Shown here in pieces: positions 9,796-49,218 of a DNA stretch of 64,000 nucleotides. Location: contig JACPUR010000014.1 in assembly GCA_016192135.1 (NCBI GenBank), positions 10,909-74,908 of the forward strand, read 5' to 3'. Position 1 is the first letter of the stretch. Each line of letters opens with the position of its first letter. Below the pieces are notes generated by a model, which saw only the letters and a program-made list of their open reading frames with translations, was not told the DNA's origin and searched no databases. This DNA is from Candidatus Tectimicrobiota bacterium. GTDB taxonomy: Bacteria > UBA8248. The translations under genes were made by a program, and so were the position numbers.

Positions 9796-9846
9796 CGGAA
9801 GGCCCCGGCTCTAGCGGAAGGCCCCGGCGGCGCCTGGATTTTCCCC

Positions 9847-9891
9847 CTTGACGGAACGCATTGGCCGCCTTATTATTAACCAAGTGGTTAA
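9847..9891 (+). promoter_or_regulatory. sigma70-like promoter (TTGACG-17-TATTAT) overlapping a perfect palindrome TTAACCAAGTGGTTAA
   Basis: Read directly: TTGACG at 9847-9852, TATTAT at 9870-9875, 16-nt palindrome at 9876-9891. Located upstream of the second DinB gene and the ArsR operon. Confidence 0.45.
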
Positions 9892-9929
9892 ATATCATCG
9901 GCCCCCCCCTTGAGACAGGAGACGCGCCC

Positions 9930-10457
9930 ATGAACGCCGCGGACCTCATCGCCAAGACCCTTGAGCTGAACAGCCAGGCCCTCGTGAGCAAGGCCCTCGA
10001 CGGCCTCACCGACGAGGACCTCCTCAAGCAGCCCGGCAAGGACTCCAACCCCACCGGCTGGCTCCTCTGGCACATGACCCGCACCGAGGACGGCCTCATC
10101 GCCCAGCTCGCCGGCAAGCCCCAGGTCTGGGCCGGGGACGGATGGGAGAAGCGCATTCCCCTCCCGGCCGGCACCAACGACAGCGGCTTCGGGCACACCA
10201 TGGAGCAGGTGCGGGCCTTCCGGGCCAAGAAACAGGATCTCCTCGACTACGCCCAGGCGGTGCGGAAGAACACCCTCGCCCTCCTGCCCTCCGTCCCCCC
10301 CGAGGCCTTCGACCGGAAGCTGGAGAGCCCGCCCAACCCGGCCGTCCAGACGGCGGGGGACTTCATGGCCGTCCTGCTCCTCGACTACTCCCACCACGCC
10401 GGCCAGATCTGCTACCTCCGGGGCCACTTCAAGGGCCACGGCTGGCTCGGGTTCTGA
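9930..10457 (+). CDS. DinB family protein (paralog)
   Basis: Collinear with 9268-9795 (WLLWHMTRTED… and DYSHHAGQICYLRGH). ATG 9930 is preceded by AGGAGA. Confidence 0.8.
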   Translation: MNAADLIAKTLELNSQALVSKALDGLTDEDLLKQPGKDSNPTGWLLWHMTRTEDGLIAQLAGKPQVWAGDGWEKRIPLPAGTNDSGFGHTMEQVRAFRAKKQDLLDYAQAVRKNTLALLPSVPPEAFDRKLESPPNPAVQTAGDFMAVLLLDYSHHAGQICYLRGHFKGHGWLGF

Positions 10458-11630: not shown

Positions 11631-11690
11631 AGGAGAGCGTCCCGCCCGGGGGCGAAGCCCGGGCCGCCGCCCGCCCGAAGGAGAACGCCC

Positions 11691-12140
11691 ATGCCCGCCT
11701 CCCCGGCCGGCATCCACCTCCGGCTCACGCGGACCTTCGAGGCGCCGCGCGAAAAAGTCTTCCGCGCCTGGACCGACCCGGAGGCGCTGAAGCGCTGGTG
11801 GGGACCCGCCGACTTCGACTGCATCGAGGCCCAGAGCGACCCGCGCCCGGGGGGCCGCTACCGCATCACCGTCCGGGAGAGGGAGAAGGGCGAGGTCTAC
11901 ACCGTCCTCGGCGAGTACCGGGAGGTCGAGCCCCCCGCCCGCCTTGTCTACACCTGGCGCTGGGGGCACTGGGACGCGGCCGCGGAGGAGAGCCTCGTCA
12001 CCGTCGAGTTTCACGCGCGGGGCGCCTCCACCGAGCTCACCCTCGTCCACGAGCGCTTCCCGGACGAGGGCACGCGCGACCAGCACAGCCAGGGCTGGGC
12101 GAGCACCCTCGGCTGCCTGGCGGAATACCTGGGCGGATGA
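11691..12140 (+). CDS. SRPBCC (AHSA1/START-like) domain protein
   Basis: LTRTFEAPREKVFRAWTDPEALKRWWGP… signature. Confidence 0.85.
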   Translation: MPASPAGIHLRLTRTFEAPREKVFRAWTDPEALKRWWGPADFDCIEAQSDPRPGGRYRITVREREKGEVYTVLGEYREVEPPARLVYTWRWGHWDAAAEESLVTVEFHARGASTELTLVHERFPDEGTRDQHSQGWASTLGCLAEYLGG

Positions 12141-12179
12141 CCTCGGGCCGGACATGACGCCGACCCCCAGAGGAGGAGC

Positions 12180-12644
12180 TTGATCGTGCCCGCTCTCCCG
12201 GCCCGCGCCCTCCACACCCTGCGCCTCGTCCGCACCTTCGAGGCGCCGCGCGAGAGGGTCTTCCGCGCCTGGACCGACCCCGAGGCGCTGAAGGAGTGGT
12301 ACGGGCCGGACGGGTGGTCCACCCCCAGCGCGGAGGTGGACCTCCGGGCGGGAGGCGGCTACCGGATCACCATGAAGGGCCCGGAAGGCGAGGAGATCCG
12401 CCTGAGCGGGACCTTCCGGGAGGTCCGGCCGCCGGAGCGGCTCGTCTACACCTGGAATTGGGAGAAATTCCACCTCGACCTCGGCGGCTTGGGGGAAACG
12501 CTGGTCACGGTTGAATTTCACGAGCGGGGCGGCGCCACGGAGCTGATCCTCACGCACGAGCGGTTCCCCCGCGCCGAAACCCGCGATCTGCACGGGGGGG
12601 GCTGGGCGAGCACCCTCGATTGCCTGGCGGAATACCTGGGCTGA
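12180..12644 (+). CDS. SRPBCC (AHSA1-like) domain protein, paralog 2
   Basis: LVRTFEAPRERVFRAWTDPEALKEWYGP… Non-ATG start (TTG 12180 or GTG 12186) after GAGGAGG. Confidence 0.8.
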   Translation: MIVPALPARALHTLRLVRTFEAPRERVFRAWTDPEALKEWYGPDGWSTPSAEVDLRAGGGYRITMKGPEGEEIRLSGTFREVRPPERLVYTWNWEKFHLDLGGLGETLVTVEFHERGGATELILTHERFPRAETRDLHGGGWASTLDCLAEYLG

Positions 12645-12670
12645 GCCTTCCACGGGAAAGGAGTCTCCGC

Positions 12671-13108
12671 ATGATCGATCGCCGCTTCCTCACCATCGCG
12701 CTGGGCTACGTCGCGGTCACCTTCGTCCTCGCCGTCCTCTGGCACCTGGTGCTGTTCAAGGGCGTCTACGACGCGCTCGGCTACGTGGGGCGCAAGGAGC
12801 CGATCTTCGCCCTGGGCCTCCTCTCCATGGTGGTGCAGGGGGCGGCGCTGGGCGGGCTCTTCCCGCGCTTCGCGCGGGGCGGGGACCCCTACCGGGAGGG
12901 GCTCCGCTTCAGCCTGGCGATGGGGGCCTTCTTCTGGAGCTGCCACGTCCTCGCGGCGGCGGCGAAGAACCCCATCTCCCCGATCCCGACCTTCGTGGCC
13001 ATCGAGACGGCCTATCTCCTGATCCAGTTCACCCTGGCGGGCCTGATCATCGGGTGGGCCCACCGGCCCGGCACGGCCCCCGCCGCGCGCTTCGCCGCCA
13101 AGGCGTGA
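12671..13108 (+). CDS. small integral membrane protein
   Basis: About 145 aa with 4 hydrophobic segments. ATG 12671 follows AAGGAG. Embedded between SRPBCC paralogs. Confidence 0.6.
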   Translation: MIDRRFLTIALGYVAVTFVLAVLWHLVLFKGVYDALGYVGRKEPIFALGLLSMVVQGAALGGLFPRFARGGDPYREGLRFSLAMGAFFWSCHVLAAAAKNPISPIPTFVAIETAYLLIQFTLAGLIIGWAHRPGTAPAARFAAKA

Positions 13109-13133
13109 GAGACTCGAAAAAAAAGGAGGCCCC

Positions 13134-13583
13134 ATGTCCATCCCCCAGACCCAGCCCCTCCACACCCTGCGCCTCACCCGCGTCTTCAACGCCCCCCGCG
13201 AGCGGGTCTGGCGCGCCTGGACCGACCCGGAGCAGATAAAGCACTGGTGGGGGCCCAAGGGCTTCACCGCCCCCAGCATCGAGATGGACCTCCGGCCGGG
13301 CGGCCGCTACCGAATCGCCATGCGCCCGCCCGAGGGGGAAATTTTTCACCTGAACGGGGTCTTCCAGGAGGTCCTCCCGCCCGAGCGGCTGGTCTACACC
13401 TTCCAGTGGGAGAAGCCCGGCTGGGACTACCCCGAGACCCTGGTGACGGCCGAGTTCCGGGACCTGGGCGGCCGGACCGAGCTCGTCCTCATCCACGAGC
13501 GGTTCCCCGAGGAGAAGATGCGGAACGATCACGAGGGCGGCTGGACGGGCACCCTCGACCGCCTGGCGGAGCTGCTGGGCTGA
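13134..13583 (+). CDS. SRPBCC (AHSA1-like) domain protein, paralog 3
   Basis: LTRVFNAPRERVWRAWTDPEQIKHWWGP…. Confidence 0.85.
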   Translation: MSIPQTQPLHTLRLTRVFNAPRERVWRAWTDPEQIKHWWGPKGFTAPSIEMDLRPGGRYRIAMRPPEGEIFHLNGVFQEVLPPERLVYTFQWEKPGWDYPETLVTAEFRDLGGRTELVLIHERFPEEKMRNDHEGGWTGTLDRLAELLG

Positions 13584-28780: not shown

Positions 28781-29068
28781 GCGGCGGGTCCTAGACGGCC
28801 GTGGCGGGCAACTCGCAATTGAGACAAAGGAATCCCAATAACGGGTGACTCTCGATCACTCTCCGGCGAGGTGTCAACACGCGGCGCCTCCGCCGCGGGG
28901 CCGGGCGCCTTTCCGGACGGCTCATCGCGCGGCGGCGCTCCCGCGGTTGCAATATTTTCCGGTCGGAATACCCTGGATGGCACATCGGCTATGAATCCAT
29001 CCGTCGGGGCCCGCTTTCGTCCACACACGTGGAAAGGGATGCCGGCTCTTTCATGGGGAGAGAACACC

Positions 29069-30601
29069 ATGAGACGATCGTTTCTCGCCGCTCTCGTTCT
29101 CGCCGCCGGGGTCCTCGCCGCGCCCTCCACCCAGGCGTTCAAGGGAGAGGTCACCATCGCCTTGGCGGACGAGGTGCCCACGATGGACCCCCACATCATC
29201 ACCAGCGCCATCGGCGTGATGGTCTGGCGCTATCCCTTCGACACCCTGACCTCGGCCGATACGGCCACCGGGAAGGTCGGGCCCTGGCTCGCCGAGAGGT
29301 GGGAGCAGATCAGCCCTACCGCTATCAAGTTCTGGCTGCGCAAGGGCGTGAAGTTCTTCGACGGCACGCCCGTCACCTCCGAGGCGGTGAAGTACTCCAT
29401 CGGCCGCATCATGGACCCGGCGAACAAGAGCCGCTCGGCCCCGGCCTTCAAGGCGTTCGACCGGGTCGAGATCCTCGACGACCACACCTTCATCTGGCAC
29501 AACAAGGTCCCCGACAACGGCACCCTCAACCGCATGACCGTCCGTCCGGCCATCATGTCGCCGAAAACGAAGGGGTGGGACAAGGCCCGGTTCGCCCGCG
29601 AGCCCGCCGGTTCGGGGCCTTACATCCTCCAGTCCTGGACGAAGGGGCAGCGGATGGTTCTGGAGGCAAACCCCGGCTGGTGGGCCAACGACAGATTCCC
29701 CCACCGGCCGAAGACCGTCGTCCTCCGCCGGATCCAGGAGGCGTCCACGCGGGTCAAGGCCCTGGCCGTGGGCGAGGTGGACCTCATCACCCAGATTCAC
29801 CCCCAGTTCATGGACGAGATCAAGGACAACCCCAACGTCGAGATGAAGTCCGTGCCTTCCGTCCGGATCATGTACCTGGGGTTCCACACCCGTCACGGCG
29901 GGCCCTTCACGGACCTCAACGTGCGCCTCGCGGTCAACCACGCCATCGACACGGCCAGCATCATCCGGACCCTGCTCCGCGGGCAGGCCGTGCCCATCGG
30001 CCAGATGATCCACCAGTGGAACTACTCCGGCTACAACCCGGACAAGAGCTGGTACGGCTACGACCCGGCGAAGGCGAAGGAGTACATGCGGAAGTCCGCC
30101 TACCCGGACGGCTTCAAGGCCACCTTGCTCTCCCCCGTCGGACGGTTCCCGGCGGACAAGCAGACCTGCGAGGCGATGACGGGGATGCTCAAGGAGATCA
30201 AGATCGACGCGGTCTGCAAGCCGATGACCTTCGCGCTCTTCACGAGGGAGTACCGGGCATACGCGCAGGGCACGAAGAAGGACCCGGCCATGTACTACAT
30301 GGGCTTCGGGAACAGCTCGGGAGACCCCGGCCTCGCCATGATCAGTACCTCGGCCTGCGGGGGCGGATGGTCGAGCCATTGCTTCAAGGACCTGGACGAC
30401 GCGATGTACAAGGCCTTGGGCACCCCCGGCTCCGAGGCGCAGCAGGCCGGGTGGGAGCGCGTGACGGACATGATCAAGGCGAAGGCGACCCACAAGATCA
30501 TGTTCCAGGTCAACGACGTCGTGGCCTTCCAGAAGAAGAGGATCGAATTCCGCCCGCGATACGACGAGATCGTCTATGCCTGGGAGATCGTCATGAAGTG
30601 A
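29069..30601 (+). CDS. ABC transporter substrate-binding protein, family 5 (peptide/nickel type)
   Basis: Signal peptide MRRSFLAALVLAAGVLAAPSTQA and an SBP_bac_5-like body. ATG 29069 lies inside ORF 28871-30601. Confidence 0.85.
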   Translation: MRRSFLAALVLAAGVLAAPSTQAFKGEVTIALADEVPTMDPHIITSAIGVMVWRYPFDTLTSADTATGKVGPWLAERWEQISPTAIKFWLRKGVKFFDGTPVTSEAVKYSIGRIMDPANKSRSAPAFKAFDRVEILDDHTFIWHNKVPDNGTLNRMTVRPAIMSPKTKGWDKARFAREPAGSGPYILQSWTKGQRMVLEANPGWWANDRFPHRPKTVVLRRIQEASTRVKALAVGEVDLITQIHPQFMDEIKDNPNVEMKSVPSVRIMYLGFHTRHGGPFTDLNVRLAVNHAIDTASIIRTLLRGQAVPIGQMIHQWNYSGYNPDKSWYGYDPAKAKEYMRKSAYPDGFKATLLSPVGRFPADKQTCEAMTGMLKEIKIDAVCKPMTFALFTREYRAYAQGTKKDPAMYYMGFGNSSGDPGLAMISTSACGGGWSSHCFKDLDDAMYKALGTPGSEAQQAGWERVTDMIKAKATHKIMFQVNDVVAFQKKRIEFRPRYDEIVYAWEIVMK

Positions 30602-30670
30602 GAGCGGGGCCGCCCCGGCCCGCCCTCTTCCGCGAACGGCCGGGATTCCCGGTATCCCGCCGCCGCGCGG

Positions 30671-31276
30671 CTAGTGCATCGGGGAGAAGGGGGCCGGGAG
30701 CCAGATCTCCGACTGCTGGGATTTCAGGATGCCCCGGGCGTAGTCGATGGTGCCGGGCGGCCAGCCGGCCTCGTGGGCGCGGCCGCGCACCTCGGCGCGG
30801 TGGTTGAGGTCCCGGTAGGGCCAGAAGTGGACGTACTCCCAGGAGCCGTCGGGAGCGGGCTCCGAGAAGAAGAGCGCCACGCAGGGCGAGAGCTTCAGCC
30901 GGGGGGGGAGATGCTTCTCCCAGGCGCGGACGGCGTCGTCCATCCTTCCGGGATGGCCCTGGTAGGTGCGGACCTCGTAGACGCCGCCCCAGCTGCCCAC
31001 GAGCGGGCGGGGAAGAAGGGGGACGGTGCGGTACATCCTGGAGGTGGAGCCCTCCACCTCGCAGCAGTTGGTCAGCGCGCGGCGCACGCGCGCCTGCTGG
31101 TCCCCGTCCTCGTGCGCCCAGACCAGCATCGCCCGGTTGAGGAGGCCGATGTCGGCCTGGAAGAGGCCGAGGAGCGAGGCCCCCAGGTCGTGCTTCCGGA
31201 AGACCCGCGCGAACTCTTTCGCGTACTCCCCCCACCCCCGGGGCGCCAAACGCACGATTTCGATCTCATAGATCAT
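30671..31276 (-). CDS. NIPSNAP family protein
   Basis: Two NIPSNAP-like halves (MIYEIEIVRL… and VYEVRTYQ…). ATG 31276 follows GGAGAA. Confidence 0.7.
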   Translation of the reverse strand: MIYEIEIVRLAPRGWGEYAKEFARVFRKHDLGASLLGLFQADIGLLNRAMLVWAHEDGDQQARVRRALTNCCEVEGSTSRMYRTVPLLPRPLVGSWGGVYEVRTYQGHPGRMDDAVRAWEKHLPPRLKLSPCVALFFSEPAPDGSWEYVHFWPYRDLNHRAEVRGRAHEAGWPPGTIDYARGILKSQQSEIWLPAPFSPMH

Positions 31277-31522
31277 GCGGAATTTCTCCACACAGAGGCC
31301 GCCGGATTATCCGACGCCATTCTCCAAAGACGCAACCGAGAGTGGGAGGTACGCGCAATCCATTGATAAGCATGAGAGTACGGGCCAAGGCCGCCGTGGC
31401 CCAAATTTCCTCCCAGGCGGGGCTTGACTTTGATTTTGCCAAACCACACAGTGCCGGGAATCTCTAGATTGATCATCCTTTCTCAATACAGAGACAAAGC
31501 AGAAGAGAAGCAGAGGCCCCAA

Positions 31523-32392
31523 ATGGACCACACGCCCTCCGCCATCCGGCATGCCCTCGACACCATCGAGGCCTTCCAGTTCGGGCCCAAGGAATTCAGC
31601 GCGCGCGAGCTCCATGAGATGCTCCACATCCCGCGCGCGACGCAGTACCGCGTCCTGCGGGTGCTGGAGGAGCGCGGCTACCTGCGCCGCGACCCCCAGA
31701 GCGGCCGCTACCGCATGGGCTTCAAGATCCTCCAGCTCGCCGCCCTCGCCCAGGATCAGATGGAGCTCGTGCGCATCGCCCAGGACGTGCTCCACCGCAT
31801 GTGGATCGAGTCGCGGGAGACGGCCCAGCTCGCGGTCGTGGACGGCCTCGAAACGGTCTACCTCCGGGTGCTGGAGAGCCCCGTGCCCCACCGGTTCGTG
31901 CTGCGGCCGGGCGTGCGGGCGCCCATCCACTGCACCTCCCCCGGCCTCGCCATCCTCGCCCACTCCCCGAAGGAGAAGGTGGAGGAGGTGCTCCGCGCCG
32001 GGCTCAAGCGCTTCACCGACAAGACCATCACCGCCCCGGAGGCGCTTCTCGCCCGGCTGGAGCAGATCCGCCGCGAGGGCGTGGCCATCAACCGGGGCGA
32101 GTGGCGGGAGAGCGGCGGAGGGATCTCGGCCCCCGCCTTCGATTTCACGGGCGAGGCGGTGGCCGCCATCGGGCTCTCGGGGCCGAACGACCGGCTCACG
32201 GAGGACCGGGTGCCGGCCATCGCGGAGGCCGTCCGGCGAGGGGCCGCCGAGCTGTCCAGGCTCCTGGGGGGAGCACCATCACCGCCGCTTGGGGCGGAGA
32301 GTGGCGTATCGGTCAACGGGGGAACCCGCGGTCATCCAAAGGAGAAGAGCAATGGAGTACAAAAGCGCGTCCGAAGCCAAGGAGTACTGTAA
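31523..32392 (+). CDS. IclR family transcriptional regulator
   Basis: ALDTIEAFQFGPKEFSARELHEMLHIPRATQYRVLRVLEERGYLRRD wHTH plus an IclR effector domain. Confidence 0.85.
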   Translation: MDHTPSAIRHALDTIEAFQFGPKEFSARELHEMLHIPRATQYRVLRVLEERGYLRRDPQSGRYRMGFKILQLAALAQDQMELVRIAQDVLHRMWIESRETAQLAVVDGLETVYLRVLESPVPHRFVLRPGVRAPIHCTSPGLAILAHSPKEKVEEVLRAGLKRFTDKTITAPEALLARLEQIRREGVAINRGEWRESGGGISAPAFDFTGEAVAAIGLSGPNDRLTEDRVPAIAEAVRRGAAELSRLLGGAPSPPLGAESGVSVNGGTRGHPKEKSNGVQKRVRSQGVL

Positions 32393-33326
32393 GGCCCACA
32401 TGAAGGGCGTGTGGGCCGCCCTCTGCACTCCGTTCACCCCCTCGGGCGAGCTGGACGAGGAGGGCCTCCGCCGCAACGTCCGCCGCTGCATCGACGACCT
32501 CAAGATCGACGGCTTCTTCTGCAACGGCCTCATGGGCGAATTCTGGTCGCTCTCCCCGCAGGAGCGCAAGCGCGCCCAGCACATCGTCTGCGAGGAGAGC
32601 CGGGGCAATGCCCAGACCATCCCGCACACGGCCCACATCAACATCTCCGAGGCGGTCGAGCTCACCCACCACGCCGAGGAAGTGGGCGGCGACTACGTGA
32701 TCATGATCAACCCGGTCTACGGCGCGCACGACGACGACGAGATCTTCCTCTACTTCCAGACCATCGCCAAGCAGACCGAGATGGGCATCGCCCTCTTCAA
32801 CCAGCCCAAGTCGGGCACGACCCTCAGCCCCGCGCTCGTCGAGCGGCTGACCGACATCCCCAACATCTGCTGCATCAAGAACGCGGTCAACAGCATGGAC
32901 CACATGGCCGAGGTCCGGCGCCGGGTGGGCGACAAGATCGTGGTCTGCGACCCCAGCGACGAGAACATGCTGGTCGGCATGGCGCACTTCGGGATGCAGG
33001 TCCACATGTCCTCGCCCGCGCCGTTCCTGTACCAGGTCCCCGGCTACACCCCGATGAAGGACATGTACGACGCGATCCAGAAGGGCGACATGGTCAAGGC
33101 CTGGAAGCTCCACTATGAGCTCGAGCCCCTGCGCCAGGTGCGGAAGAAGTACTTCACCTCGGGCCCGAACGGCCGGACGACGGCCTACCTGAAGGAGTGG
33201 AGCAAGCTCCTCGGCATGGCCGCCGGCGAGCCGCGCCCGCCCATCGTCCCCCTGACGGACAAGGAGCGGAAGCAGTTCCGGGACGATCTGACCAAGACCG
33301 GGATTCTCGACAAGGTGAAGGCCTAG
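32352..33326 (+). CDS. dihydrodipicolinate synthase (DapA/aldolase class I) family protein
   Basis: GVWAALCTPFTPSGELDEEGLRRNVRRCIDD…GFFCNGLMGEFWSLS… ATG 32352 follows AAGGAGAAG. Confidence 0.85.
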   Translation: MEYKSASEAKEYCKAHMKGVWAALCTPFTPSGELDEEGLRRNVRRCIDDLKIDGFFCNGLMGEFWSLSPQERKRAQHIVCEESRGNAQTIPHTAHINISEAVELTHHAEEVGGDYVIMINPVYGAHDDDEIFLYFQTIAKQTEMGIALFNQPKSGTTLSPALVERLTDIPNICCIKNAVNSMDHMAEVRRRVGDKIVVCDPSDENMLVGMAHFGMQVHMSSPAPFLYQVPGYTPMKDMYDAIQKGDMVKAWKLHYELEPLRQVRKKYFTSGPNGRTTAYLKEWSKLLGMAAGEPRPPIVPLTDKERKQFRDDLTKTGILDKVKA

Positions 33327-33472
33327 GCTTCATTCCCGCGTCCATGCGCCCTCGGGGGTGGCCCGGCCGCCCCCGAGGGCGGAACTCTCGAACTCATCAG
33401 CGGTGGGAAGGCCGGTGCGGCGGCCCATGCGCCGCCATGCGGTCATCCAGGATTACTGGAGGAAAAAATCCC

Positions 33473-35050
33473 ATGATGCATATTCTCGCCGCTGCCCTCG
33501 CAGTTCTCGCCCTCGCCCTTGGACCCGCGGCCGGCGCCCAGGCCGCGAAGCGGGGCGGCACCCTCCGGATCGCGACCGAGGGAGAAGCGTTCGATCTCAA
33601 CCCCATCGGGATCAGCGGCGCCCTGAAGGTCTACCGGGAGATCATGGGCGGCGCCCTTCTCCGCCTCGACGAGAACTTCAACCCCATCGGCGACCTGGCG
33701 AAGAGCTGGGAGATCTCCGACGAAGGGCGCATCGTCACCTTCAAGCTCCACCCCGGGGGCACCTACCACGACGGCGCCCCGCTCGACGCCGAATCGGTCA
33801 AGTGGAACCTCGACCTCGTCAACAAGACGGTCCCGAAGTGGGTCGAGGAGATGAAGAAAAAGAACCCCAAGTACAAGTGGCAAAATCTCTTCGTCAACTA
33901 TCTCTACCACATCGACAAGGTGGAGGTGGTGGACAAGTACACCCTCCGCGTCCACCAGAAGGACCTGGGTAAGGGCCAGCTCTTCGACGCCATGACGGGC
34001 ACCCTGGGACGCTTCGTCCTCGTCTCGCCCAAGGCCTACGACACCGACATCGAGTCCTTCCGCCGCCGCCCCGTCCTGAGCGGCCCCTACAAGTTCGTGG
34101 AGTGGAAGCGCAACCAGCACCTCTTCGCCGAGCGCCACAGGGGCTTCTACCGCAAGGGCCAGCCCTACCTCGACCGGCTCGAGTTCTACTTCATCCCCGA
34201 CGCGAACCAGCGGATGAACGCCCTCCTCTCGGGCCAGATCGACGTCATCAACAACCTGCCCCTCTCCCTCTACGAGACGATGAAGAAGGCGCCCGGCGTC
34301 GTCGTCCACCGGGGGCGGGCCACCATCAACTACGCCTTCCCCTTCAACAACCAGATGGAGCCCTGGAAGGACCTCCGGGTGCGCAAGGCCGTCTCCTGCT
34401 ACGCCGTGGACCGGGCCCAGATCGTGAAGACCGCCCTGCGGGGGCTCGGCAAGCCCTGGGTGACCTTCGCGCCCGGCGGGGCCGTGGACGCGCTCGACCT
34501 CACGGCCGAGTGCCCCTACGACCCCGAGAAGGCCAAGAAGCTCCTGGCCGAGGCGGGCTACGGCCCGGGCAAGCCCCTCAAGATCACCATGACGACCAAC
34601 AACTCCGACCCGGCCCACATCGAGGTGTCCCAGGCGCTCAAGCTCCAGTTCGCCAAGAGCAACATCGACATGGAAGTCAAGATCGTGGACTACGCCACCT
34701 GGAACCGCGGCTTCGTGGGCCAGCACAAGATCCAGCTCACGCTCCAGAACACGCTCTCCTCCCGCAGCGTGAACAGCAACTCCCACGTCGTCTACTCGAA
34801 GGCGGGGAACGACTACTACCAAGTCAAGGACCCCAAGCTGGACGAGCTGCTGGACGCCTGGCGCTCGACCATCGACCCGCGCAAGCAGCTCGAGGCCAGC
34901 CACGCGATCCAGCGCTACGTCCTGGACCAGGCGTATTACCCCAACCTCGCCACCTTCTCGTTCCTGGAGGTCACGCGGGACTACGTGAAGGGATTCAAGT
35001 ACCTGGGCAAGCTGATGTTCGACTACAGCGAGGTCTGGCTGGACAAATAG
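33473..35050 (+). CDS. ABC substrate-binding protein family 5, tandem paralog 1
   Basis: Signal peptide MMHILAAALAVLALALGPAAGAQAAKRGGTLRI and an SBP_bac_5 body. Confidence 0.9.
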   Translation: MMHILAAALAVLALALGPAAGAQAAKRGGTLRIATEGEAFDLNPIGISGALKVYREIMGGALLRLDENFNPIGDLAKSWEISDEGRIVTFKLHPGGTYHDGAPLDAESVKWNLDLVNKTVPKWVEEMKKKNPKYKWQNLFVNYLYHIDKVEVVDKYTLRVHQKDLGKGQLFDAMTGTLGRFVLVSPKAYDTDIESFRRRPVLSGPYKFVEWKRNQHLFAERHRGFYRKGQPYLDRLEFYFIPDANQRMNALLSGQIDVINNLPLSLYETMKKAPGVVVHRGRATINYAFPFNNQMEPWKDLRVRKAVSCYAVDRAQIVKTALRGLGKPWVTFAPGGAVDALDLTAECPYDPEKAKKLLAEAGYGPGKPLKITMTTNNSDPAHIEVSQALKLQFAKSNIDMEVKIVDYATWNRGFVGQHKIQLTLQNTLSSRSVNSNSHVVYSKAGNDYYQVKDPKLDELLDAWRSTIDPRKQLEASHAIQRYVLDQAYYPNLATFSFLEVTRDYVKGFKYLGKLMFDYSEVWLDK

Positions 35051-35090
35051 CCGCCTGAACCGCGGCGCGCACCGGAAGGATGGAGCCGAC

Positions 35091-36668
35091 ATGAAAGCCC
35101 GCCTGGCATTGATCGCCGCCGCCCTGCTGCTGCTCGGCGCCGCGCCCGGCGCCCACGCCGCCAAGCGCGGCGGGACCCTGCGCGTGGCCATGGAGGGGGA
35201 CACCACCGACCTCGACGTCGTCAAGGTCGGCTGGCCCCTCAAGGTGTACCGGGAGAGCCTCGGCACCGGCCTCATGTCCGTGAACGAGAACTTCGAGTTC
35301 ACGGGAGACTTGGCGCGGAGCTGGGAGCTCTCCGACGAAGGGCGGGTCCTCACCCTGAGGCTCCACCCCGGCGGGACCTACCACGACGGGGCCCCGCTCG
35401 ACGCCGAGTCGGTGAAGTGGAACTTCGGCCTCGTCACGGGCGAGGTGGTGCCGAAGTGGCTGCAGGAGGCCCGGAAGAAGAACCCGAAGGCGCAGATACC
35501 CAACAGCTTCAAGGCCTACCTGAGCCACGTCCAGAAGGTGGAGGTGGTGGACAAGTACACCCTCCGCATCCACCAGAAGGACATCGGCAAGGCCCAGACC
35601 TTCGAGGCCCTGGCCGCCACCTTCACCCGGTTCGTGCTCGTCTCGCCCAAGGCCTACGACATGGACATCGAGAAGTTCAGCCGGTCGCCGGTCCTGAGCG
35701 GTCCCTTCAAGTTCGTGGAGTGGAAGCGCAACCAGCACCTCTTCGCCGAGCGCCACAAGGGCTACTTCGACAAGAACCTGCCCTACGTGGACCGGATCGA
35801 GTTCTACTTCATGCCCGACGCCAACCAGCGGATGAACGCCCTGACCTCCGGGCAGATCGACATCATCAACAACCTGCCCCTGTCCCTCTACGAGACGGCC
35901 AAGAAGGCGCCCGGCGTCCGGACCTACCTCGGCCGGACCACCACCAACTACGCCTTCCCCTACAACGTGCAGCTTCCGATGTGGAAGGACATCCGCGTCC
36001 GGAAGGCCATCTCGTGCTACGGGGTGGACCGGGCCGGGATCGCCAAGACCGCCCTGCGCGGCCTCGGGCAGCCCTGGAACAGCGTCTCCCCCCCCGGGGC
36101 CGTCGACGCCCTCGACCTCACCAAGGAGTGCCCCTACGATCCGGAGAAGGCCAGGAAGCTCCTCGCCGAGGCGGGCTACGGGCCGGCCAAGCCCTTCAAG
36201 TTCACCATGACCACCAACAACTCCGATCCGGCCCACCTCGAGGTGGCCCAGGCGCTGAAGTCCCAGTTCGCCCGGATCGGGGCGGACATGGACATCCGGG
36301 TGGTGGACTACGCCACCTGGAACCGCGCCTTCGTGGTCCAGCGCAGGCTGGAGATCACCCTTCAAAACACGCTCTCCTCGCTGACCGTGAACACCAATTC
36401 CCACGTCTTCTACTCGAAGTCGGGGCTCGACTACTACAACATCAAGGACCCCAAGCTGGACGGCCTCGTGGAGGCCTGGCGCTCCACCATCGACCCGCGC
36501 CGGCAGATCGAGGCCAGCCACCGCATCCAGCGGTACATGGCCGAGATGGCCTACTACCCGGCCATCGCCGGGTTCCCGTTCATCCAGGCGTCGCGGGCGG
36601 ACGTGAAGGGCTTCCACTACCTGGGCAAGCTGATGAACGACTTCCGCGGGGTGTGGCTGGACAGGTAA
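35091..36668 (+). CDS. ABC substrate-binding protein family 5, tandem paralog 2
   Basis: MKARLALIAAALLLLGAAPGAHAAKRGGTLRV. Collinear with paralogs 1 and 3. Confidence 0.9.
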   Translation: MKARLALIAAALLLLGAAPGAHAAKRGGTLRVAMEGDTTDLDVVKVGWPLKVYRESLGTGLMSVNENFEFTGDLARSWELSDEGRVLTLRLHPGGTYHDGAPLDAESVKWNFGLVTGEVVPKWLQEARKKNPKAQIPNSFKAYLSHVQKVEVVDKYTLRIHQKDIGKAQTFEALAATFTRFVLVSPKAYDMDIEKFSRSPVLSGPFKFVEWKRNQHLFAERHKGYFDKNLPYVDRIEFYFMPDANQRMNALTSGQIDIINNLPLSLYETAKKAPGVRTYLGRTTTNYAFPYNVQLPMWKDIRVRKAISCYGVDRAGIAKTALRGLGQPWNSVSPPGAVDALDLTKECPYDPEKARKLLAEAGYGPAKPFKFTMTTNNSDPAHLEVAQALKSQFARIGADMDIRVVDYATWNRAFVVQRRLEITLQNTLSSLTVNTNSHVFYSKSGLDYYNIKDPKLDGLVEAWRSTIDPRRQIEASHRIQRYMAEMAYYPAIAGFPFIQASRADVKGFHYLGKLMNDFRGVWLDR

Positions 36669-36803
36669 GAGCCTTTTTGAGAAAAATGACCATTCGAAAA
36701 GCGGCCATCATCCGGCCGGCGGCCGCCCCGCGGCGCCGGGCGCACCGCGATCCTGACGCTGGATCCTGACAATGCAGGCCCAAACCATGGGAGGCACACC
36801 ATC

Positions 36804-38384
36804 ATGATGTGGACGCGGACCGCGGCCGTCATGGCCGCCCTGGCCCTCGTCCTGGCCCCCGCGGCCGGGGCGGAGGCCGCCAAGCGCGGCGGCACGCTGC
36901 GCATCGGAATCGAGGGCGAGGCGCCGGACCTGAACGTCATCGGCATCAACTTCGCCCGCAAGGTGTACCGCGAGGCGATGGGCAACGGCCTGGTCCGCCT
37001 CGACGAGAACTTCGAGGTCGTGGGAGACGCGGCCAAGGAGTGGGAGGTCTCCGAGGACGGGCGCATCATCACCTTCAAGCTCCATCCCGGGGGCACCTAC
37101 CACGACGGCGCCCCGCTCGACGCCGCGTCCGTCAAGTGGAACCTCGACCTCATCAACAAGACGGCCCCGAAGTGGGCCGAGGAGATGAAGAAGAAGAACC
37201 CCAAGTACAAGTGGCGCAACATCTGGGTGGGCTATCTCTTCCACATCGACCAGGTGGATGTCATCGACAAGTACACCGTCCGGGTCCGCCAGAAGGACCT
37301 GGGCAAGGCGCAGACCTTCGACGCCATGTCGAGCGCCTTCTCCCGCTTCGTGCTCGTCTCGCCCAAGGCCTACGACACGGACCTCGAGAAGTTCCGCCTC
37401 CACCCGGTCCTGAGCGGTCCCTTCAAGTTCGTGGAGTGGAAGCGCAACCAGCACCTCTTCGCCGAGCGCCACAAGGGCTACTTCGACAAGAACCTGCCCT
37501 ACGTGGACCGGATCGAGTTCTACTTCATGCCGGACGCCAACCAGCGGATGAACGCCCTGGCCGCCGGGCAGATCGACATCATCAACAACCTGCCCCTCCC
37601 GCTCTACGAGACGGCGAAGAAGACCGAGGGGGTGAAGGTGCTGGTAGGCCCCAACACCATCAACTACGCCGTGCCCATCAACGGCCAGATGGACCCGTGG
37701 AAGGACGTGCGCGTCCGCCGGGCCCTCGGCTGCTACGGCATCGACCGGGCCCAGATCGTGAGGACCGCTCTGCGGGGGCTCGGCAAGCCCTGGGCGAGCT
37801 ACTCCCCCGCCGGCGCCAAGGACGCCCTGGACCTCACGAAGGAGTGCCCCCACGACCCCGCCAAGGCGAAGAAGCTCCTCGCCGAGGCGGGCTACGGGCC
37901 GGGCAAGCCGCTCAAGATCACCCTGACCACCAACAACTCCGACCCGGCCCACCTCGAGGTGTCCCAGGCGCTCAAGTCCCAGTTTGGCCAGCTCGGGGTC
38001 GACATGGAGATCCGCGTGGTGGACTACGCCACCTGGAACCGCGCCTTCGTCGCCCAGCGCCGGCTCCAGCTCACGCTGCAGAACACCCTCTCCTCCCGGA
38101 CGGTGAACAGCAACTCGCACACCATCCACTCCAAGTCGGGGATCGACTATTACAACATCAAGGATCCCAAGGTGGACGCCTTCCTCGACGAGTGGCGCTC
38201 CAACATCGACCCCCGCAAGCAGCTCGAGGCCAGCCACAAGCTCCAGCGCTACATGGTGGAGCAGGGGTACTACCCCAACATCGCCAGCTTCGGCCTCCTG
38301 CAGGCGGCGCGGGACTACGTGAAAGGATTCACGAATCTTGGTAAGCTCATGCTCGACTACAGGGCCGTCTGGCTGGACAAGTAA
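36804..38384 (+). CDS. ABC substrate-binding protein family 5, tandem paralog 3
   Basis: MMWTRTAAVMAALALVLAPAAGAEAAKRGGTLRI. Collinear with paralogs 1 and 2. Confidence 0.9.
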   Translation: MMWTRTAAVMAALALVLAPAAGAEAAKRGGTLRIGIEGEAPDLNVIGINFARKVYREAMGNGLVRLDENFEVVGDAAKEWEVSEDGRIITFKLHPGGTYHDGAPLDAASVKWNLDLINKTAPKWAEEMKKKNPKYKWRNIWVGYLFHIDQVDVIDKYTVRVRQKDLGKAQTFDAMSSAFSRFVLVSPKAYDTDLEKFRLHPVLSGPFKFVEWKRNQHLFAERHKGYFDKNLPYVDRIEFYFMPDANQRMNALAAGQIDIINNLPLPLYETAKKTEGVKVLVGPNTINYAVPINGQMDPWKDVRVRRALGCYGIDRAQIVRTALRGLGKPWASYSPAGAKDALDLTKECPHDPAKAKKLLAEAGYGPGKPLKITLTTNNSDPAHLEVSQALKSQFGQLGVDMEIRVVDYATWNRAFVAQRRLQLTLQNTLSSRTVNSNSHTIHSKSGIDYYNIKDPKVDAFLDEWRSNIDPRKQLEASHKLQRYMVEQGYYPNIASFGLLQAARDYVKGFTNLGKLMLDYRAVWLDK

Positions 38385-48032: not shown

Positions 48033-48575
48033 TCACTTGCCGCCGCTCTCCTTGGTGATCCCCAGGCTCGCCTCGGCGTTCGCGAGATATTCCCCGATGC
48101 GGCCCCGCTCGGCGTCGATCTTGTTCAGCACTTCCACGAAGGCGGCGGCCCTCTCGGGCGAGCCCTCCCGCTGCTGGAGGGAAATCTTGTCGATCTCCGT
48201 CTCCGCCGTGCTCATCAGCCGCCGGATGTCGTGGACCGCCCTCCGGTGGACGTTGTGGAGCATGCCGCCCGGCCAAAGGCCGTCGATGGCGACGCAAATC
48301 CCGGCGACGAGCGCGAGGACGCCCACCAGCTGCTCGCTCGCCCCCACGGTGGCCGAGGCCGCACTGACGGCCGAGCTCGCGATGGCGGGCAGCTTGAAGC
48401 CCCAAAAACGCACGAAGTCCCACCGGGCGTCCCGGTTGTTCCGCCTGGCCCAATCCGACAGATGGGCGAGGTGCTTCCGGATCCGCTCCTCGTCGCTCTG
48501 CGGCTTCCCGCCGCCTCCCCCTCCGCCGCCGAATTCCCCCATGGGTGCGAGCACTGGATGCCGGCGCTCGAACAT
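48033..48575 (-). CDS. 2-TM protein, possibly SLATT/DUF4231-like
   Basis: 180 aa: poly-Gly N-terminus, an amphipathic helix, two adjacent TM helices (LPAIASSAVSAASATVG / LVGVLALVAGICVAIDGLW), then a helical tail. The family call is by architecture only. Confidence 0.45.
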   Translation of the reverse strand: MFERRHPVLAPMGEFGGGGGGGGKPQSDEERIRKHLAHLSDWARRNNRDARWDFVRFWGFKLPAIASSAVSAASATVGASEQLVGVLALVAGICVAIDGLWPGGMLHNVHRRAVHDIRRLMSTAETEIDKISLQQREGSPERAAAFVEVLNKIDAERGRIGEYLANAEASLGITKESGGK

Positions 48576-48652
48576 CTCCCGCCCCCCTCAGCCGGAAACC
48601 GCCCTATCCGCCCATTCGATTCCTGCCCATCCCGTATTCCATATTCTACTAC

Positions 48653-48700
48653 GAAAAATCCAAAGGCTTCCAGGCGCGATTCCGGGGGGACGCGGAAGCC
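48653..48700 (-). terminator. intrinsic terminator of the DUF1573-like gene
   Basis: Minus-strand hairpin GGCTTCC…GGAAGCC (48700-48665) followed by TTTGGATTTTT. Confidence 0.55.
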
Positions 48701-48708
48701 TTCGCCGA

Positions 48709-49143
48709 TCAATTCAGCGTGAAGTCGGCCTTGATGTGGAGCTCGACGGCGGGCCTCCGGGGATCGTTCGTCTCGAGGCGGATGAGGAAGTGGTGCGGCC
48801 CCTCCATCCCCTGGGTCATGGTGAAGGCGATGTCCACGAAGCCTTCCTGGCCGGGCGTCAGGGTTGTGGGACCCACAACCGCGCGGGGGGGTCAGCAGCC
48901 CTCCAGGGCCCTGGCCTGGAGGGTGTTCCCCGGCGGGAGGGAGTTCGTGATCTTGAGGGGGGCGTCGCCCGTGTTCTTGAACGCGAAGCGGTGCCGCACG
49001 TACTGCCCGACGGGCACCTTCCCGTAGTTCACCTCGGAGCCCCGGACCTCGATGCTCGGGGAGCCCGAGCCGCAGGCGGCCGCGAGCGGCAGGAGGAGAC
49101 ACAGGGAAGCCGGGATTCTCCCAATGCGCCATTTCTTCGGCAT
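48709..49143 (-). CDS. DUF1573-like lipoprotein with an in-frame UGA (candidate selenocysteine, …LEGC-U-PP…)
   Basis: Lipobox LLLPLAAAC and a DUF1573-type VNYGKVPVGQYVRHRFAFKNTGDAPLKI motif. There is a TGA at 48892-48894, and the frame continues for 61 codons with the same codon bias to TGA 48709-48711. A SECIS-like hairpin lies 11 nt after the UGA. Confidence 0.55.
48862..48880 (-). other. SECIS-like stem-loop GGUUGUG-GGUCC-CACAACC
   Basis: Perfect 7-bp stem with a GGUC-containing loop, beginning exactly 11 nt 3' of UGA 48894-48892. Compare the E. coli fdhF upper SECIS, GGUUGCA-GGUC-UGCACC, at the same spacing. Confidence 0.5.
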
Positions 49144-49218
49144 GTCGGCGAGCCTCTCGAATGAAAACGACAATCGCGGCGCTGGCCAGGGGAAAACTCC
49201 AGCCCGCCGCCCCCCAGT

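What the first reader, a model, noticed from the sequence alone, without database searches (positions are those of the whole stretch)
48709..49143. Candidate selenoprotein: DUF1573-like lipoprotein with in-frame UGA and a SECIS-like hairpin at canonical spacing
Seen in sequence: on the minus strand, a lipoprotein ORF (MPKKWRIGRIPASLCLLLPLAAAC…, DUF1573-type VNYGKVPVGQYVRHRFAFKNTGDAPLKI) hits TGA at 48894-48892 directly after a Cys (…ALEGC-TGA-PPRAVVGPTTLTPGQEGFVDIAF…ETNDPRRPAVELHIKADFTLN). The same frame stays open for 61 more codons with unchanged G/C-ending codon usage. It ends at TGA 48711-48709, about 8 nt before a hairpin plus T-tract terminator. Exactly 11 nt 3' of the internal UGA is a perfect hairpin, GGUUGUG-GGUCC-CACAACC. 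Established knowledge: the E. coli fdhF SECIS upper stem-loop (GGUUGCA-GGUC-UGCACC) also starts 11 nt after UGA and needs the GGUC loop; DUF1573 domains normally carry an S-C-G-C-T motif at this position. Inference: the gene encodes one 144-aa protein with a Cys-Sec (C-U) redox or metal site, not a 93-aa truncated product. I do not recall a selenoprotein form of this family.
Basis: partly seen in the sequence, partly recalled or inferred. Interest (0 to 1): 0.8.

Follow-up and report, generated by a model that had tools for sequence, protein, structure and literature searches.

The report
Copper-linked Cys-Sec DUF1573-like selenoprotein gene
This small exported-protein gene has an in-frame UGA that is almost certainly read as selenocysteine, guided by a conserved, covarying RNA hairpin. 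It belongs to a widespread Cys-Sec branch of the DUF1573 family that is absent from the selenoprotein catalogue I checked; DUF1573 already has one known selenoprotein form, and relatives of this gene sit in copper-handling gene clusters.

Summary

- **Gene.** The minus-strand gene 49143..48709 has TGA at 48894-48892 after Cys83. An 8-bp hairpin starts 11 nt downstream, and the same frame stays open for 60 more codons.
- **Domain.** The Pfam DUF1573 match spans the TGA.
- **Relatives.** At least 80 relatives keep the TGA, the 11-nt spacer and the hairpin: 74 GTDB species (Chloroflexota, Methylomirabilota/Rokubacteria, Nitrospinota) plus metagenome contigs. Two hairpin pairs made only of synonymous third positions covary with no mispairs (C-G/U-A/G-C and C-G/G-C/A-U).
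- **Cys counterparts.** 66 full-length homologs carry Cys at the Sec column (motif E-G-C-C-P-P).
- **Selection.** Codons after the TGA show the same pattern of change as those before it.
- **Novelty.** A DUF1573 selenoprotein (OS_HP2, motif U-G-C, NCBIfam NF041425) has been known since 2007. The window protein scores 42 bits against a cutoff of 100, has C-U rather than U-G-C, and this form is absent from a 2026 catalogue of 119 families.
- **Function (inferred).** An extracytoplasmic copper-handling protein. 45 of 74 Sec-form loci, and the Cys-form loci examined, lie beside a CuA-type cupredoxin-cytochrome c, CYCXC/PCYCGC proteins, Fer4_5 proteins, multicopper oxidases and copper P-type ATPases.
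- **Untested.** The Sec machinery could not be checked in this genome.

The parts
48709..49143 (-). Complete selenoprotein gene: 144 codons including Sec84, plus the stop codon TGA at 48711-48709.
   Evidence: The Pfam DUF1573 hit spans residues 32-139, across the TGA. Orthologs share the same frame and the same end.
49153..49158 (-). Shine-Dalgarno-like GAGAGG, 9 nt upstream of the ATG at 49143-49141.
   Evidence: Read directly from the sequence. Function is inferred.
49072..49143 (-). Signal peptide (residues 1-23) and the lipobox-like L-A-A-A-C with Cys24. This predicts an exported, probably lipid-anchored protein.
   Evidence: Sequence. Close orthologs keep AAAC/AAC. More distant Sec-forms have a plain signal peptide, and Chloroflexota forms have an N-terminal membrane helix. 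No dedicated signal-peptide predictor was run.
48895..48897 (-). Cys83 codon (TGC), the first residue of the Cys-Sec dyad.
   Evidence: Invariant in every Sec-form and Cys-form homolog.
48892..48894 (-). In-frame UGA, read as Sec84.
   Evidence: The TGA is kept in 5 or more independent assemblies of the same gene, in diverged metagenomic orthologs and in 74 GTDB species. It aligns with the second Cys of E-G-C-C-P-P in 66 Cys-form homologs.
48881..48891 (-). 11-nt spacer between the UGA and the hairpin. It encodes P-P-R plus the first two bases of the following Ala codon.
   Evidence: The length is invariant in all 70 distinct sequences aligned. The same spacing occurs in E. coli fdhF (my own knowledge, Liu et al. 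1998).
48862..48880 (-). Bacterial SECIS hairpin. The 5' arm is 48880-48874, the loop region GGUCC is 48873-48869, and the 3' arm is 48868-48862. It folds as 8 bp with a GUC apical loop.
   Evidence: - MFE is -10.7 kcal/mol.
- It meets the published bSECIS model criteria (PMC13188914).
- The six inner pairs are paired in 70 of 70 distinct sequences.
- Two pairs built from synonymous third positions covary (CG58/UA8/GC4 and CG61/GC7/AU2) with no mispairs.
48712..48891 (-). The 60 codons after Sec, which complete the Ig-like beta-sandwich.
   Evidence: The substitution pattern matches the upstream part. Pfam coverage runs to residue 139. The AF2 model of Cys homolog P0163 gives a complete sandwich only when this part is included.
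48790..48819 (-). Conserved Met/His motif, M109-x3-M113-x-G-P-H117-H118. These are candidate metal ligands together with Cys83 and Sec84.
   Evidence: M, M, G and H are invariant or nearly so in 66 Cys-forms. M..[GA]M.G.H is present in 65 of 74 Sec-forms. The ligand role is inferred.
48653..48702 (-). Stem-loop followed by GAUUUUUC, a possible intrinsic terminator.
   Evidence: Fold (-23.8 kcal/mol, z = -1.4). The consensus scan did not call it. Weak evidence.

Best explanation
The gene encodes a 144-residue exported, probably lipid-anchored, DUF1573-like Ig-fold protein. Codon 84 (UGA) is decoded as selenocysteine.

**Recoding mechanism.**
- The mRNA hairpin 11 nt downstream of the UGA has 6-8 bp and an apical loop starting G-G/U.
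- It acts as a bacterial SECIS. SelB-GTP-Sec-tRNA(Sec) binds it and delivers Sec to the A-site, so translation continues for 60 more codons and completes the beta-sandwich.

**Protein product.**
- The result is a vicinal Cys83-Sec84 dyad in a loop. By strand topology, the conserved Met109/Met113/His117-118 loop lies at the same end of the sandwich.

**Function.**
- Most likely this site binds or transfers a soft metal, copper in particular, outside the cytoplasm.
- The candidate roles are a Cu(I) chaperone or buffer, or a thiol/selenol reductase serving Cu-site assembly.
- The Sec form would be a higher-affinity or more oxidation-resistant version of the Cys-Cys form found in relatives.

**What is shown.**
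- The UGA, the hairpin and the frame are conserved.
- The hairpin covaries.
- Sec and Cys pair at the same column.
- The gene family is linked to copper genes.

**What is inferred.**
- Actual Sec insertion.
- Metal binding and the specific metal.
For: **Recoding**
- The DUF1573 domain is complete only with read-through.
- The identical gene with TGA appears in 5 or more independent assemblies.
- Orthologs at 81%, 67% and about 50% identity keep the TGA, the 11-nt spacer and the hairpin, and end at the same C-terminus.
- A genome scan used a protein-level pattern that left the hairpin third positions free. It found 74 true loci and 1 chance hit; the loci not cut by a contig end continue for about 58-80 more codons, mostly 59-60.
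- Covariation sits exactly at synonymous sites with no mispairs. The covariation score is 0.187 against 0.076 in shuffles (0 of 500 reach it) and at most 0.071 for slid registers.
- The hairpin satisfies all four published bSECIS criteria.
- 66 Cys-form homologs have Cys at the Sec column.
- Only 1 of 66 Cys-forms has the A-V-V-G-x-T-T that encodes the hairpin, and that one has TGG at the Sec codon.
- Purifying selection is the same on both sides of the TGA.
- TGA is an ordinary stop here: about 20 of the 46 coding-like ORFs listed in the window end in TGA, and so does this gene.
- Related lineages use Sec. CYCXC genes with in-frame TGA lie in the same clusters. A Methylomirabilota MAG is reported with 63 predicted selenoproteins (PMC13188914). 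Chloroflexi have selenoproteins (PMC1794560).

**Copper link**
- 45 of 74 Sec-form loci carry, mostly on the same strand, one or more of these neighbours:
  - CuA-type cupredoxin-cytochrome c (30 loci; motif C-x3-C-x3-H-x2-M);
  - PCYCGC/CYCXC (23);
  - Fer4_5, NapH/NosR-like (19);
  - multicopper oxidase (10);
  - copper P-type ATPase (9; TIGR01511 at 596 bits).
- Cys-form loci show the same context, plus DUF305, YtkA and YHS.
- C, C/U, M, M and H are conserved.
Against: - No selA, selB, selD or tRNA-Sec is in the 64-kb window, and none is near the gene in 60 related loci. The trait is therefore unverified for this genome.
- No Rfam family matches the hairpin.
- Four of the six inner stem pairs are fixed by Val and Thr codons, so only two pairs are truly informative.
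- The genome scan required A-V-V-G, which biases the sample towards one hairpin class.
- In the window itself the neighbours are not copper genes: a glyoxalase, an unknown protein and a tRNA-Lys. The closest relatives L067 and L017 also lack them.
- Structure search gives only generic PapD/HYDIN-like Ig folds and no metallochaperone.
- Residue proximity in the model could not be measured.
Confidence: 0.85

Rival explanations
1. The UGA is a real stop. The gene is a pseudogene, or the TGA is an assembly error, and only an 83-aa fragment is made, if anything.
For: Gene callers in every source database ended the protein at Cys83. No Sec machinery is visible in the window.
Against: - The TGA recurs in independent assemblies and in 74 species.
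- The downstream 60 codons stay in frame under the same selection as the upstream part.
- The domain would be cut in mid-sandwich.
- Cys is present at that column in homologs.
Confidence: 0.02
2. There are two separate products: the 83-aa N-terminal piece, and a C-terminal piece started at the internal GTG (48876) inside the hairpin.
For: The ORF list shows a 55-aa GTG-initiated ORF at 48709..48876. Some databases hold such a fragment (P0207).
Against: In most relatives the corresponding codons are GTC GTC, which cannot start translation. There is no ribosome-binding site. Neither half is a complete fold.
Confidence: 0.01
3. The hairpin stimulates SelB-independent read-through or another recoding, inserting Trp or Cys at the UGA rather than selenocysteine.
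For: Sec insertion was not demonstrated. One relative (P0159) has TGG (Trp) at this codon yet keeps the hairpin-encoding residues. No sel genes were seen.
Against: - The hairpin geometry matches SECIS: 11-nt spacer as in fdhF, a loop starting GG/GU, and the published bSECIS criteria.
- Cys, not Trp, is the general counterpart at this column.
- A known selenoprotein family with UGA sits in the same clusters.
- These phyla are known Sec users.
Confidence: 0.07
4. It is a real selenoprotein, but its job is thiol/selenol-disulfide redox chemistry or detoxification of another thiophilic element (Hg, As, Cd), not copper binding as such. The vicinal Cys-Sec would form a selenenylsulfide like the G-C-U-G end of thioredoxin reductase.
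For: - Most selenoproteins are redox enzymes.
- The C-U motifs catalogued so far are in Hg or organometallic proteins (HgcA, SaoL, SaoC, MbdU; PMC13188914).
- CuA assembly itself needs a disulfide reductase (Sco/TlpA; my own knowledge).
- The window copy has no copper neighbours.
- L017 sits beside an RND efflux system and sulfur-assimilation genes.
Against: The neighbours are overwhelmingly copper proteins and a copper-specific P1B ATPase, not mer or ars genes. The conserved Met/His residues are typical of Cu(I) sites and are not needed for a simple redox dyad.
Confidence: 0.3

Closest known systems
OS_HP2 / 'DUF1573 domain-containing protein' selenoprotein family (Zhang & Gladyshev 2007, PMC1976440; NCBIfam NF041425; motif U-G-C)
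   Same: It has the same Pfam domain (PF07610) and the same small, secreted, single-domain architecture. Sec lies in the same loop as the family's Cys motif, and a bacterial SECIS follows directly downstream.
   Different: - The window protein scores 42.2 bits against the NF041425 cutoff of 100.
- The motif is E-G-C-U-P-P, with Sec as the second residue of a vicinal pair. In OS_HP2, Sec replaces the first Cys of C-G-C. In the MAFFT alignment the window Sec falls on the Gly column of S-C-G-C-T.
- The taxa differ: Chloroflexota, Methylomirabilota and Nitrospinota, against marine deltaproteobacterial symbionts.
- No OS_HP2 sequence was available for a direct alignment.
E. coli fdhF SECIS (minimal upper stem-loop GGUUGCAGGUCUGCACC, 11 nt after the UGA)
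   Same: It has the 11-nt spacer, a 5' arm starting GGUUG, and a loop beginning GGU(C). The SelB-binding mechanism is presumed to be the same.
   Different: - There is no bulged U.
- The stem is a perfect 7-8 bp, and the loop's later positions vary among orthologs (GGUCC, GGGGC, GGUGC, GGUUC).
- The fdhF sequence is quoted from memory. No Rfam model matched.
Known C-U motif selenoproteins (HgcA, SaoL, SaoC, MbdU, KCU-star, Csac_0668; Table 1 of PMC13188914)
   Same: They carry a vicinal Cys-Sec replacing a Cys-Cys pair, and most are linked to binding of soft metals or organometallics.
   Different: The folds and families are unrelated. None has an Ig-like DUF1573 domain, and none is reported in copper clusters.
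Periplasmic copper chaperones and CuA assembly factors (PCuAC, Sco, CopC, CusF)
   Same: It is inferred to work like them. It is small and extracytoplasmic, has a beta-sandwich fold and Cys/Met/His candidate ligands, and is encoded beside cupredoxin/CuA proteins, multicopper oxidases and Cu-ATPases.
   Different: No sequence or structural membership was found. Pfam gives only DUF1573/HYDIN-like, and Foldseek gives PapD/HYDIN-like Ig domains.
CYCXC / PCYCGC (OS_HP4) selenoprotein family, PF13798 / NF041379
   Same: It is a co-operonic partner in 23 of 74 loci. In the Nitrospinota-type loci it also carries an in-frame UGA (G-U-G-V-C).
   Different: It is a different protein family. It is a neighbour, not a homolog.

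Membership tests
Bacterial selenoprotein gene (Sec-UGA plus bSECIS) | In-frame UGA with the coding frame continuing downstream under selection. | tested here: met
   60 more codons follow. Window against L001 gives 40/12/8 identical/synonymous/non-synonymous codons after the TGA, against 43/9/8 before it. Related loci not cut by a contig end continue for about 58-80 codons, mostly 59-60.
Bacterial selenoprotein gene (Sec-UGA plus bSECIS) | Homologs with Cys aligned to the UGA column. | tested here: met
   66 full-length homologs carry E-G-C-C-P-P, and the second Cys is at least 90% conserved.
Bacterial selenoprotein gene (Sec-UGA plus bSECIS) | bSECIS consensus model: loop of 3-9 nt, stem of 4-16 bp, G in the first two loop positions, 16-37 nt from the UGA to the loop, MFE at or below -7.5 kcal/mol (PMC13188914). 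| tested here: met
   The loop is GUC (or GGUCC) and the stem is 7-8 bp. The UGA-to-loop distance is 18-19 nt and the MFE is -10.7 kcal/mol. About 2.7% of random TGAs in the window pass a comparable geometric test.
Bacterial selenoprotein gene (Sec-UGA plus bSECIS) | The hairpin is conserved with the UGA and supported by compensatory changes. | tested here: met
   Among 70 distinct sequences, the inner six pairs are 100% paired and two pairs show 12 and 9 double changes with no mispairs.
Bacterial selenoprotein gene (Sec-UGA plus bSECIS) | selA, selB, selC and selD present in the same genome. | not testable with these tools
   None is in the 64-kb window. Support is indirect only: a second UGA-containing known selenoprotein family in related loci and the literature on these phyla.
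Bacterial selenoprotein gene (Sec-UGA plus bSECIS) | Selenium actually incorporated into the protein. | not testable with these tools
   This needs 75Se labelling or mass spectrometry.
Pfam DUF1573 (PF07610) | Score at or above the gathering threshold of 26.1 bits. | tested here: met
   35.2 bits, residues 32-139, obtained only with the read-through sequence. PF22544 (HYDIN/VesB-like Ig) also passes at 31.7 bits against 25.5.
NCBIfam NF041425 OS_HP2 family (seleno)protein | Score at or above the curated cutoff of 100 bits. | tested here: not met
   42.2 bits.
NCBIfam NF041425 OS_HP2 family (seleno)protein | Sec within a U-G-C motif (Sec replacing the first Cys of C-G-C). | tested here: not met
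   The motif here is G-C-U-P-P. Cys83 aligns with the first Cys of S-C-G-C-T, and Sec aligns with the Gly.
Rfam bacterial SECIS families | A covariance-model match. | tested here: not met
   No SECIS family was reported at the gathering threshold or at E up to 10.
Bacterial lipoprotein | Signal peptide ending in a lipobox with an invariant Cys. | tested here: inconclusive
   L-A-A-A-C24 fits the loose PROSITE-type pattern (my own knowledge), and the closest orthologs keep it. More distant Sec-forms lack the Cys. No predictor was run.
Known copper chaperone families (CopC, PCuAC, Sco, CusF) | Sequence or fold membership. | tested here: not met
   No such Pfam or NCBIfam hits. Foldseek and PDB sequence searches give only generic Ig-like domains.

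The most novel reading that the evidence does not exclude
This gene may represent an uncatalogued, phylogenetically broad selenoprotein subfamily: E-G-C-U-P-P DUF1573-like proteins in Chloroflexota, Methylomirabilota and Nitrospinota. It would be a dedicated extracytoplasmic copper chaperone or CuA-assembly factor that uses a vicinal Cys-Sec (selenolate) ligand pair. In some lineages it would work in one operon with a second selenoprotein (CYCXC). That would be the first selenoprotein module devoted to copper trafficking.
Probability: 0.35. Interest if true: 0.65.

Novelty: new variant of a known kind. Interest (0 to 1): 0.5.

Why it matters
- **Annotation.** Gene callers truncate this protein everywhere. 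Every database copy of a Sec-form recovered here is an 81-84-aa stub or a 55-aa C-terminal fragment. A whole family in at least 74 species is therefore mis-annotated, and selenoproteome counts for Chloroflexota, Methylomirabilota and Nitrospinota are too low.
- **SECIS constraint.** The family shows clearly how a SECIS constrains a coding sequence. A-V-V-G-x-T-T is present in almost all Sec-forms sampled and in only 1 of 66 Cys-forms. Covariation is confined to wobble positions.
- **Biology.** A vicinal Cys-Sec site in an Ig-like exported protein, embedded in copper gene clusters, would link selenium use to copper homeostasis or CuA maturation. It would also offer natural Cys/Sec pairs for testing what selenium adds to a metal site.
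- **Limit.** This is still one more bacterial selenoprotein subfamily using the standard mechanism, in a domain family already known to have a Sec form.

Tried and rejected
- **Rfam.** Searches at the gathering threshold on the whole window and at E up to 10 around the site found no SECIS family. They found only a weak look-alike on an upstream inverted repeat.
- **tRNA-Sec.** None in the window or in 60 related loci.
- **Sel genes.** Pfam scans of about 46 window ORFs found no SelA, SelB or SelD and no other selenoprotein.
- **Other in-frame TGAs.** A codon-bias scan for further in-frame TGAs found only this gene. The other hit was a junction between two separate AHSA1 genes.
- **Representative-library search.** The search with the N-terminal profile was dominated by giant multi-repeat Ig proteins. 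It did yield three more truncated Sec-forms.
- **Thermodynamic test.** Comparison of the hairpin region with shuffles was uninformative (z = 0.10).
- **Terminator.** The consensus scan found nothing.
- **Structure searches.** Foldseek and PDB sequence searches gave only generic PapD/HYDIN/ASH Ig-like folds.
- **Genetic-code reassignment.** Rejected. TGA terminates about 20 of the 46 coding-like window ORFs and this gene itself, and GC is 68%.
- **Deng et al. groundwater-MAG paper.** It may list this family but is not in the library, so prior description there cannot be excluded.
- **Hairpin in Cys-forms.** Only two Cys-form loci were examined at the DNA level. One has no hairpin at the site and one has a weak 5-bp hairpin, which is too few to conclude.
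Full report
**1. Observation.** On the minus strand an ORF starts at ATG 49143-49141, with GAGAGG 9 nt upstream. It encodes a signal peptide ending L-A-A-A-C24 and then a DUF1573-type sequence. It reaches TGC (Cys83, 48897-48895) and then TGA (48894-48892). The same frame continues for 60 sense codons to TGA 48711-48709. Eleven nucleotides after the internal TGA lies GGTTGTG-GGTCC-CACAACC (48880-48862). It folds as 8 bp with a GUC loop at -10.7 kcal/mol.

The Pfam DUF1573 model matches residues 32-139, so the domain is whole only if the TGA is read through. The truncated product would be 83 aa from the ATG, or 93 aa from an upstream TTG.

The hairpin alone is only mildly improbable. 2.7% of all TGA triplets in the window are followed by a perfect hairpin of at least 7 bp in SECIS-like geometry. 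The region is not more stable than shuffled sequence. The downstream terminator is plausible but weak.

**2. The TGA is not an error or a decayed gene.** The identical gene with TGA occurs in at least five independent assemblies: four SRA runs and a JGI metagenome. Orthologs at 81% (L001) and 67% (L002) identity keep the TGA, the 11-nt spacer and the hairpin. So do three further clusters at or near 50% identity (L009, L010, L011-L016). Where the contig allows, they run to the same C-terminus...HIKA(D/N)F.... Between the window and L001, the 60 codons after the TGA show 40 identical, 12 synonymous and 8 non-synonymous. The 60 mature codons before it show 43, 9 and 8.

**3. Breadth and an unbiased look at the hairpin.** I scanned one genome per GTDB species with a pattern that fixes only the amino acids G-C-UGA-P-P-x-A-V-V-G and leaves every third position free. 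This gave 75 loci. One, in Streptomyces, is a chance hit with no hairpin and a short frame. The other 74 all have a hairpin at the same place, and those not cut by a contig end continue for about 58-80 more codons, mostly 59-60. Most are Chloroflexota (Anaerolineae, Caldilineae, Dehalococcoidia). Nine are Methylomirabilota/Rokubacteria, two are Nitrospinota, and a few carry other labels.

In an ungapped alignment of 70 distinct sequences, the six inner pairs are paired in 70 of 70. Two pairs are formed purely by wobble positions: Val GTN against Thr ACN, and Val GTN against the third base of the loop-closing codon. These covary as C-G 58 / U-A 8 / G-C 4 and as C-G 61 / G-C 7 / A-U 2, with no mispairs. 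The covariation score is 0.187 against 0.076 ± 0.009 in shuffles (0 of 500 reach it) and at most 0.071 for slid registers.

The loop always begins G-G/U, and the spacer is always 11 nt. These features meet the published bacterial SECIS model: loop of 3-9 nt, stem of 4-16 bp, G in the first two loop positions, 16-37 nt from the UGA to the loop, and MFE at or below -7.5 kcal/mol (PMC13188914). From memory, they also resemble the E. coli fdhF minimal SECIS.

Two limits apply. Four of the six inner pairs are fixed by codon identity. The scan required A-V-V-G, so other hairpin classes would be missed.

**4. Sec/Cys pairing.** A profile search with the read-through family returned about 80 full-length homologs of 129-177 aa. 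Their motif is V-E-G-C-C-P-P-R-A. The window's Sec aligns with the second Cys of that doublet, which is at least 90% conserved among 66 sequences.

Only 1 of the 66 Cys-forms has the A-V-V-G-x-T-T that encodes the hairpin. That one (P0159) has TGG at the Sec codon. The peptide stretch is therefore a footprint of the SECIS, not a requirement of the protein.

Classical DUF1573 proteins have S-C-G-C-T here. MAFFT places Cys83 on the first Cys and Sec on the Gly.

**5. Alternatives to selenocysteine.** Code reassignment is excluded. About 20 of the 46 coding-like window ORFs end in TGA, and so does this gene. A separately initiated C-terminal ORF is excluded because the GTG inside the hairpin is GTC in most relatives. 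SelB-independent read-through cannot be formally excluded, because no sel gene or tRNA-Sec is in the window or near the gene elsewhere.

Indirect support for Sec decoding in these lineages comes from three sources.
- The neighbouring CYCXC/PCYCGC genes in L018 and L011 carry an in-frame TGA at the known U-x-x-C position of that recognised selenoprotein family.
- A Methylomirabilota MAG is reported with 63 predicted selenoproteins.
- Chloroflexi are known selenoprotein carriers.

The window organism is uncultured with 68% GC. Its fumarase is 89% identical to one from a 'Nitrospinota bacterium' MAG. The nearest GTDB ortholog of the selenoprotein (67% identity) is in a 68%-GC MAG with the same label.

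**6. What the protein probably does.** An AlphaFold model of a Cys-form (P0163, pLDDT 85) is a nine-stranded Ig-like sandwich preceded by a membrane helix. Foldseek and PDB searches return only PapD/HYDIN/ASH-type domains, including the DUF1573 structure 2qsv.

The conserved residues beyond the fold are G-C-C/U-P and M-(H)-x-G-M-x-G-P-H. By strand parity, both loops lie at the same end of the sandwich.

Gene context is informative. 45 of 74 Sec-form loci have copper-type neighbours, mostly co-directional and abutting:
- a cupredoxin-cytochrome c fusion with a CuA/NosZ-type C-x3-C-x3-H-x2-M (30 loci);
- PCYCGC/CYCXC (23 loci);
- Fer4_5 proteins of the NapH/NosR type (19 loci);
- multicopper oxidase (10 loci);
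- a copper-translocating P-type ATPase (9 loci; TIGR01511 at 596 bits);
- OmpR-type two-component systems.

Cys-form loci show the same cluster, plus DUF305, YtkA and a YHS-domain ABC protein. I therefore favour an extracytoplasmic copper-handling role: a Cu(I) chaperone or buffer, or a reductase serving Cu-site assembly. In this view the Cys-Sec dyad is an upgraded Cys-Cys.

The main weakness is that the window copy and its closest relatives are not next to copper genes. A redox or other-metal role remains a serious rival. The C-U motifs catalogued so far are in Hg or organometallic proteins.

**7. Comparison with what is known, and novelty.** A DUF1573 selenoprotein is not new. OS_HP2 was found in Olavius symbionts in 2007 (PMC1976440). 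Reviews list it as 'DUF1573 domain-containing protein, motif UGC', and NCBIfam models it as NF041425.

The window protein is related but is not a member by the curated test (42.2 against 100 bits). Its Sec is in a C-U rather than a U-G-C motif.

The 2026 catalogue counts forms with a different Sec position as distinct subfamilies. It lists 119 families and no C-U DUF1573 form. NCBIfam release 20 has no model that claims this protein.

I rate it a new variant of a known kind. The selenoprotein is real and is mis-annotated everywhere, the mechanism is standard, and the copper association is new but inferred.

**Verdict.** The copper function is inferred (about 0.5). Interest is moderate (0.5).

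Noticed in passing
window 48899-48923 (-): A near-perfect inverted repeat, CCCTCCAGGCC-AG-GGCCCTGGAGGG, ends 4 nt before the Cys-Sec codons. It encodes T-L-Q-A-R-A-L-E. A permissive Rfam scan flagged it as a weak look-alike of a frameshift-site hairpin (28.5 bits against a gathering score of 45). It is partly kept in L001 and not kept in L002.
   Followed up: partly
L018 4766-5110 (+); L011 8525-8863 (-): The PCYCGC/CYCXC (OS_HP4) genes next to the Sec-form gene in Nitrospinota-type loci are themselves interrupted by an in-frame TGA (...DRHGAG*GVCVETALVAS...). Two selenoprotein genes therefore sit in one cluster with a 700-aa Fer4_5 protein.
   Followed up: partly
protein P0159 (JGI contig, 167 aa): This homolog has Trp (TGG) at the Sec column (EGCWPPRAVVGSTT) but keeps the hairpin-encoding A-V-V-G-S-T-T. 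It is either a recent TGA-to-TGG change or a base-call error.
   Followed up: no
L042 562-1554 (+) and 29 other loci; L094 7903-8937: A roughly 330-aa fusion of a cupredoxin with a CuA/NosZ-type C-x3-C-x3-H-x2-M motif and a C-terminal cytochrome c recurs beside the gene. It is often joined by a second small cupredoxin/COX2 protein, a PCYCGC protein and a Fer4_5 protein. This looks like an uncharacterised conserved copper/electron-transfer operon in Chloroflexota.
   Followed up: partly
window 52487/53051-59983 (+): A very large (about 2300-2500 aa) sensor kinase with eight GAF domains, PAS, HisKA, HATPase_c and a partial receiver domain.
   Followed up: no
window 28823-38384 (+); 11631-13583 (+); 9235-10457 (+): Paralogue runs in the window: four SBP_bac_5 solute-binding proteins, three tandem AHSA1/SRPBCC proteins and two DinB_2 proteins. 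The two AHSA1 genes at 11631-12140 and 12141-12644 are in the same frame and separated only by a TGA, but they are separate full-length genes, not a selenoprotein.
   Followed up: yes
window 48033-48587 (-): The 184-aa ORF directly downstream of the selenoprotein gene has no Pfam family and only a weak SLATT-domain hit (20.6 bits against a cutoff of 41). It is conserved next to the gene in the near-identical contigs L004-L007.
   Followed up: no
L096 6001-6468 (Cys-form locus): In one Cys-form gene, a weak 5-bp hairpin (TTTCC-GTA-GGAAA) sits 12 nt after the second Cys codon. It may be a relic of a SECIS or may be chance. The other Cys-form locus examined (L094) has none.
   Followed up: no
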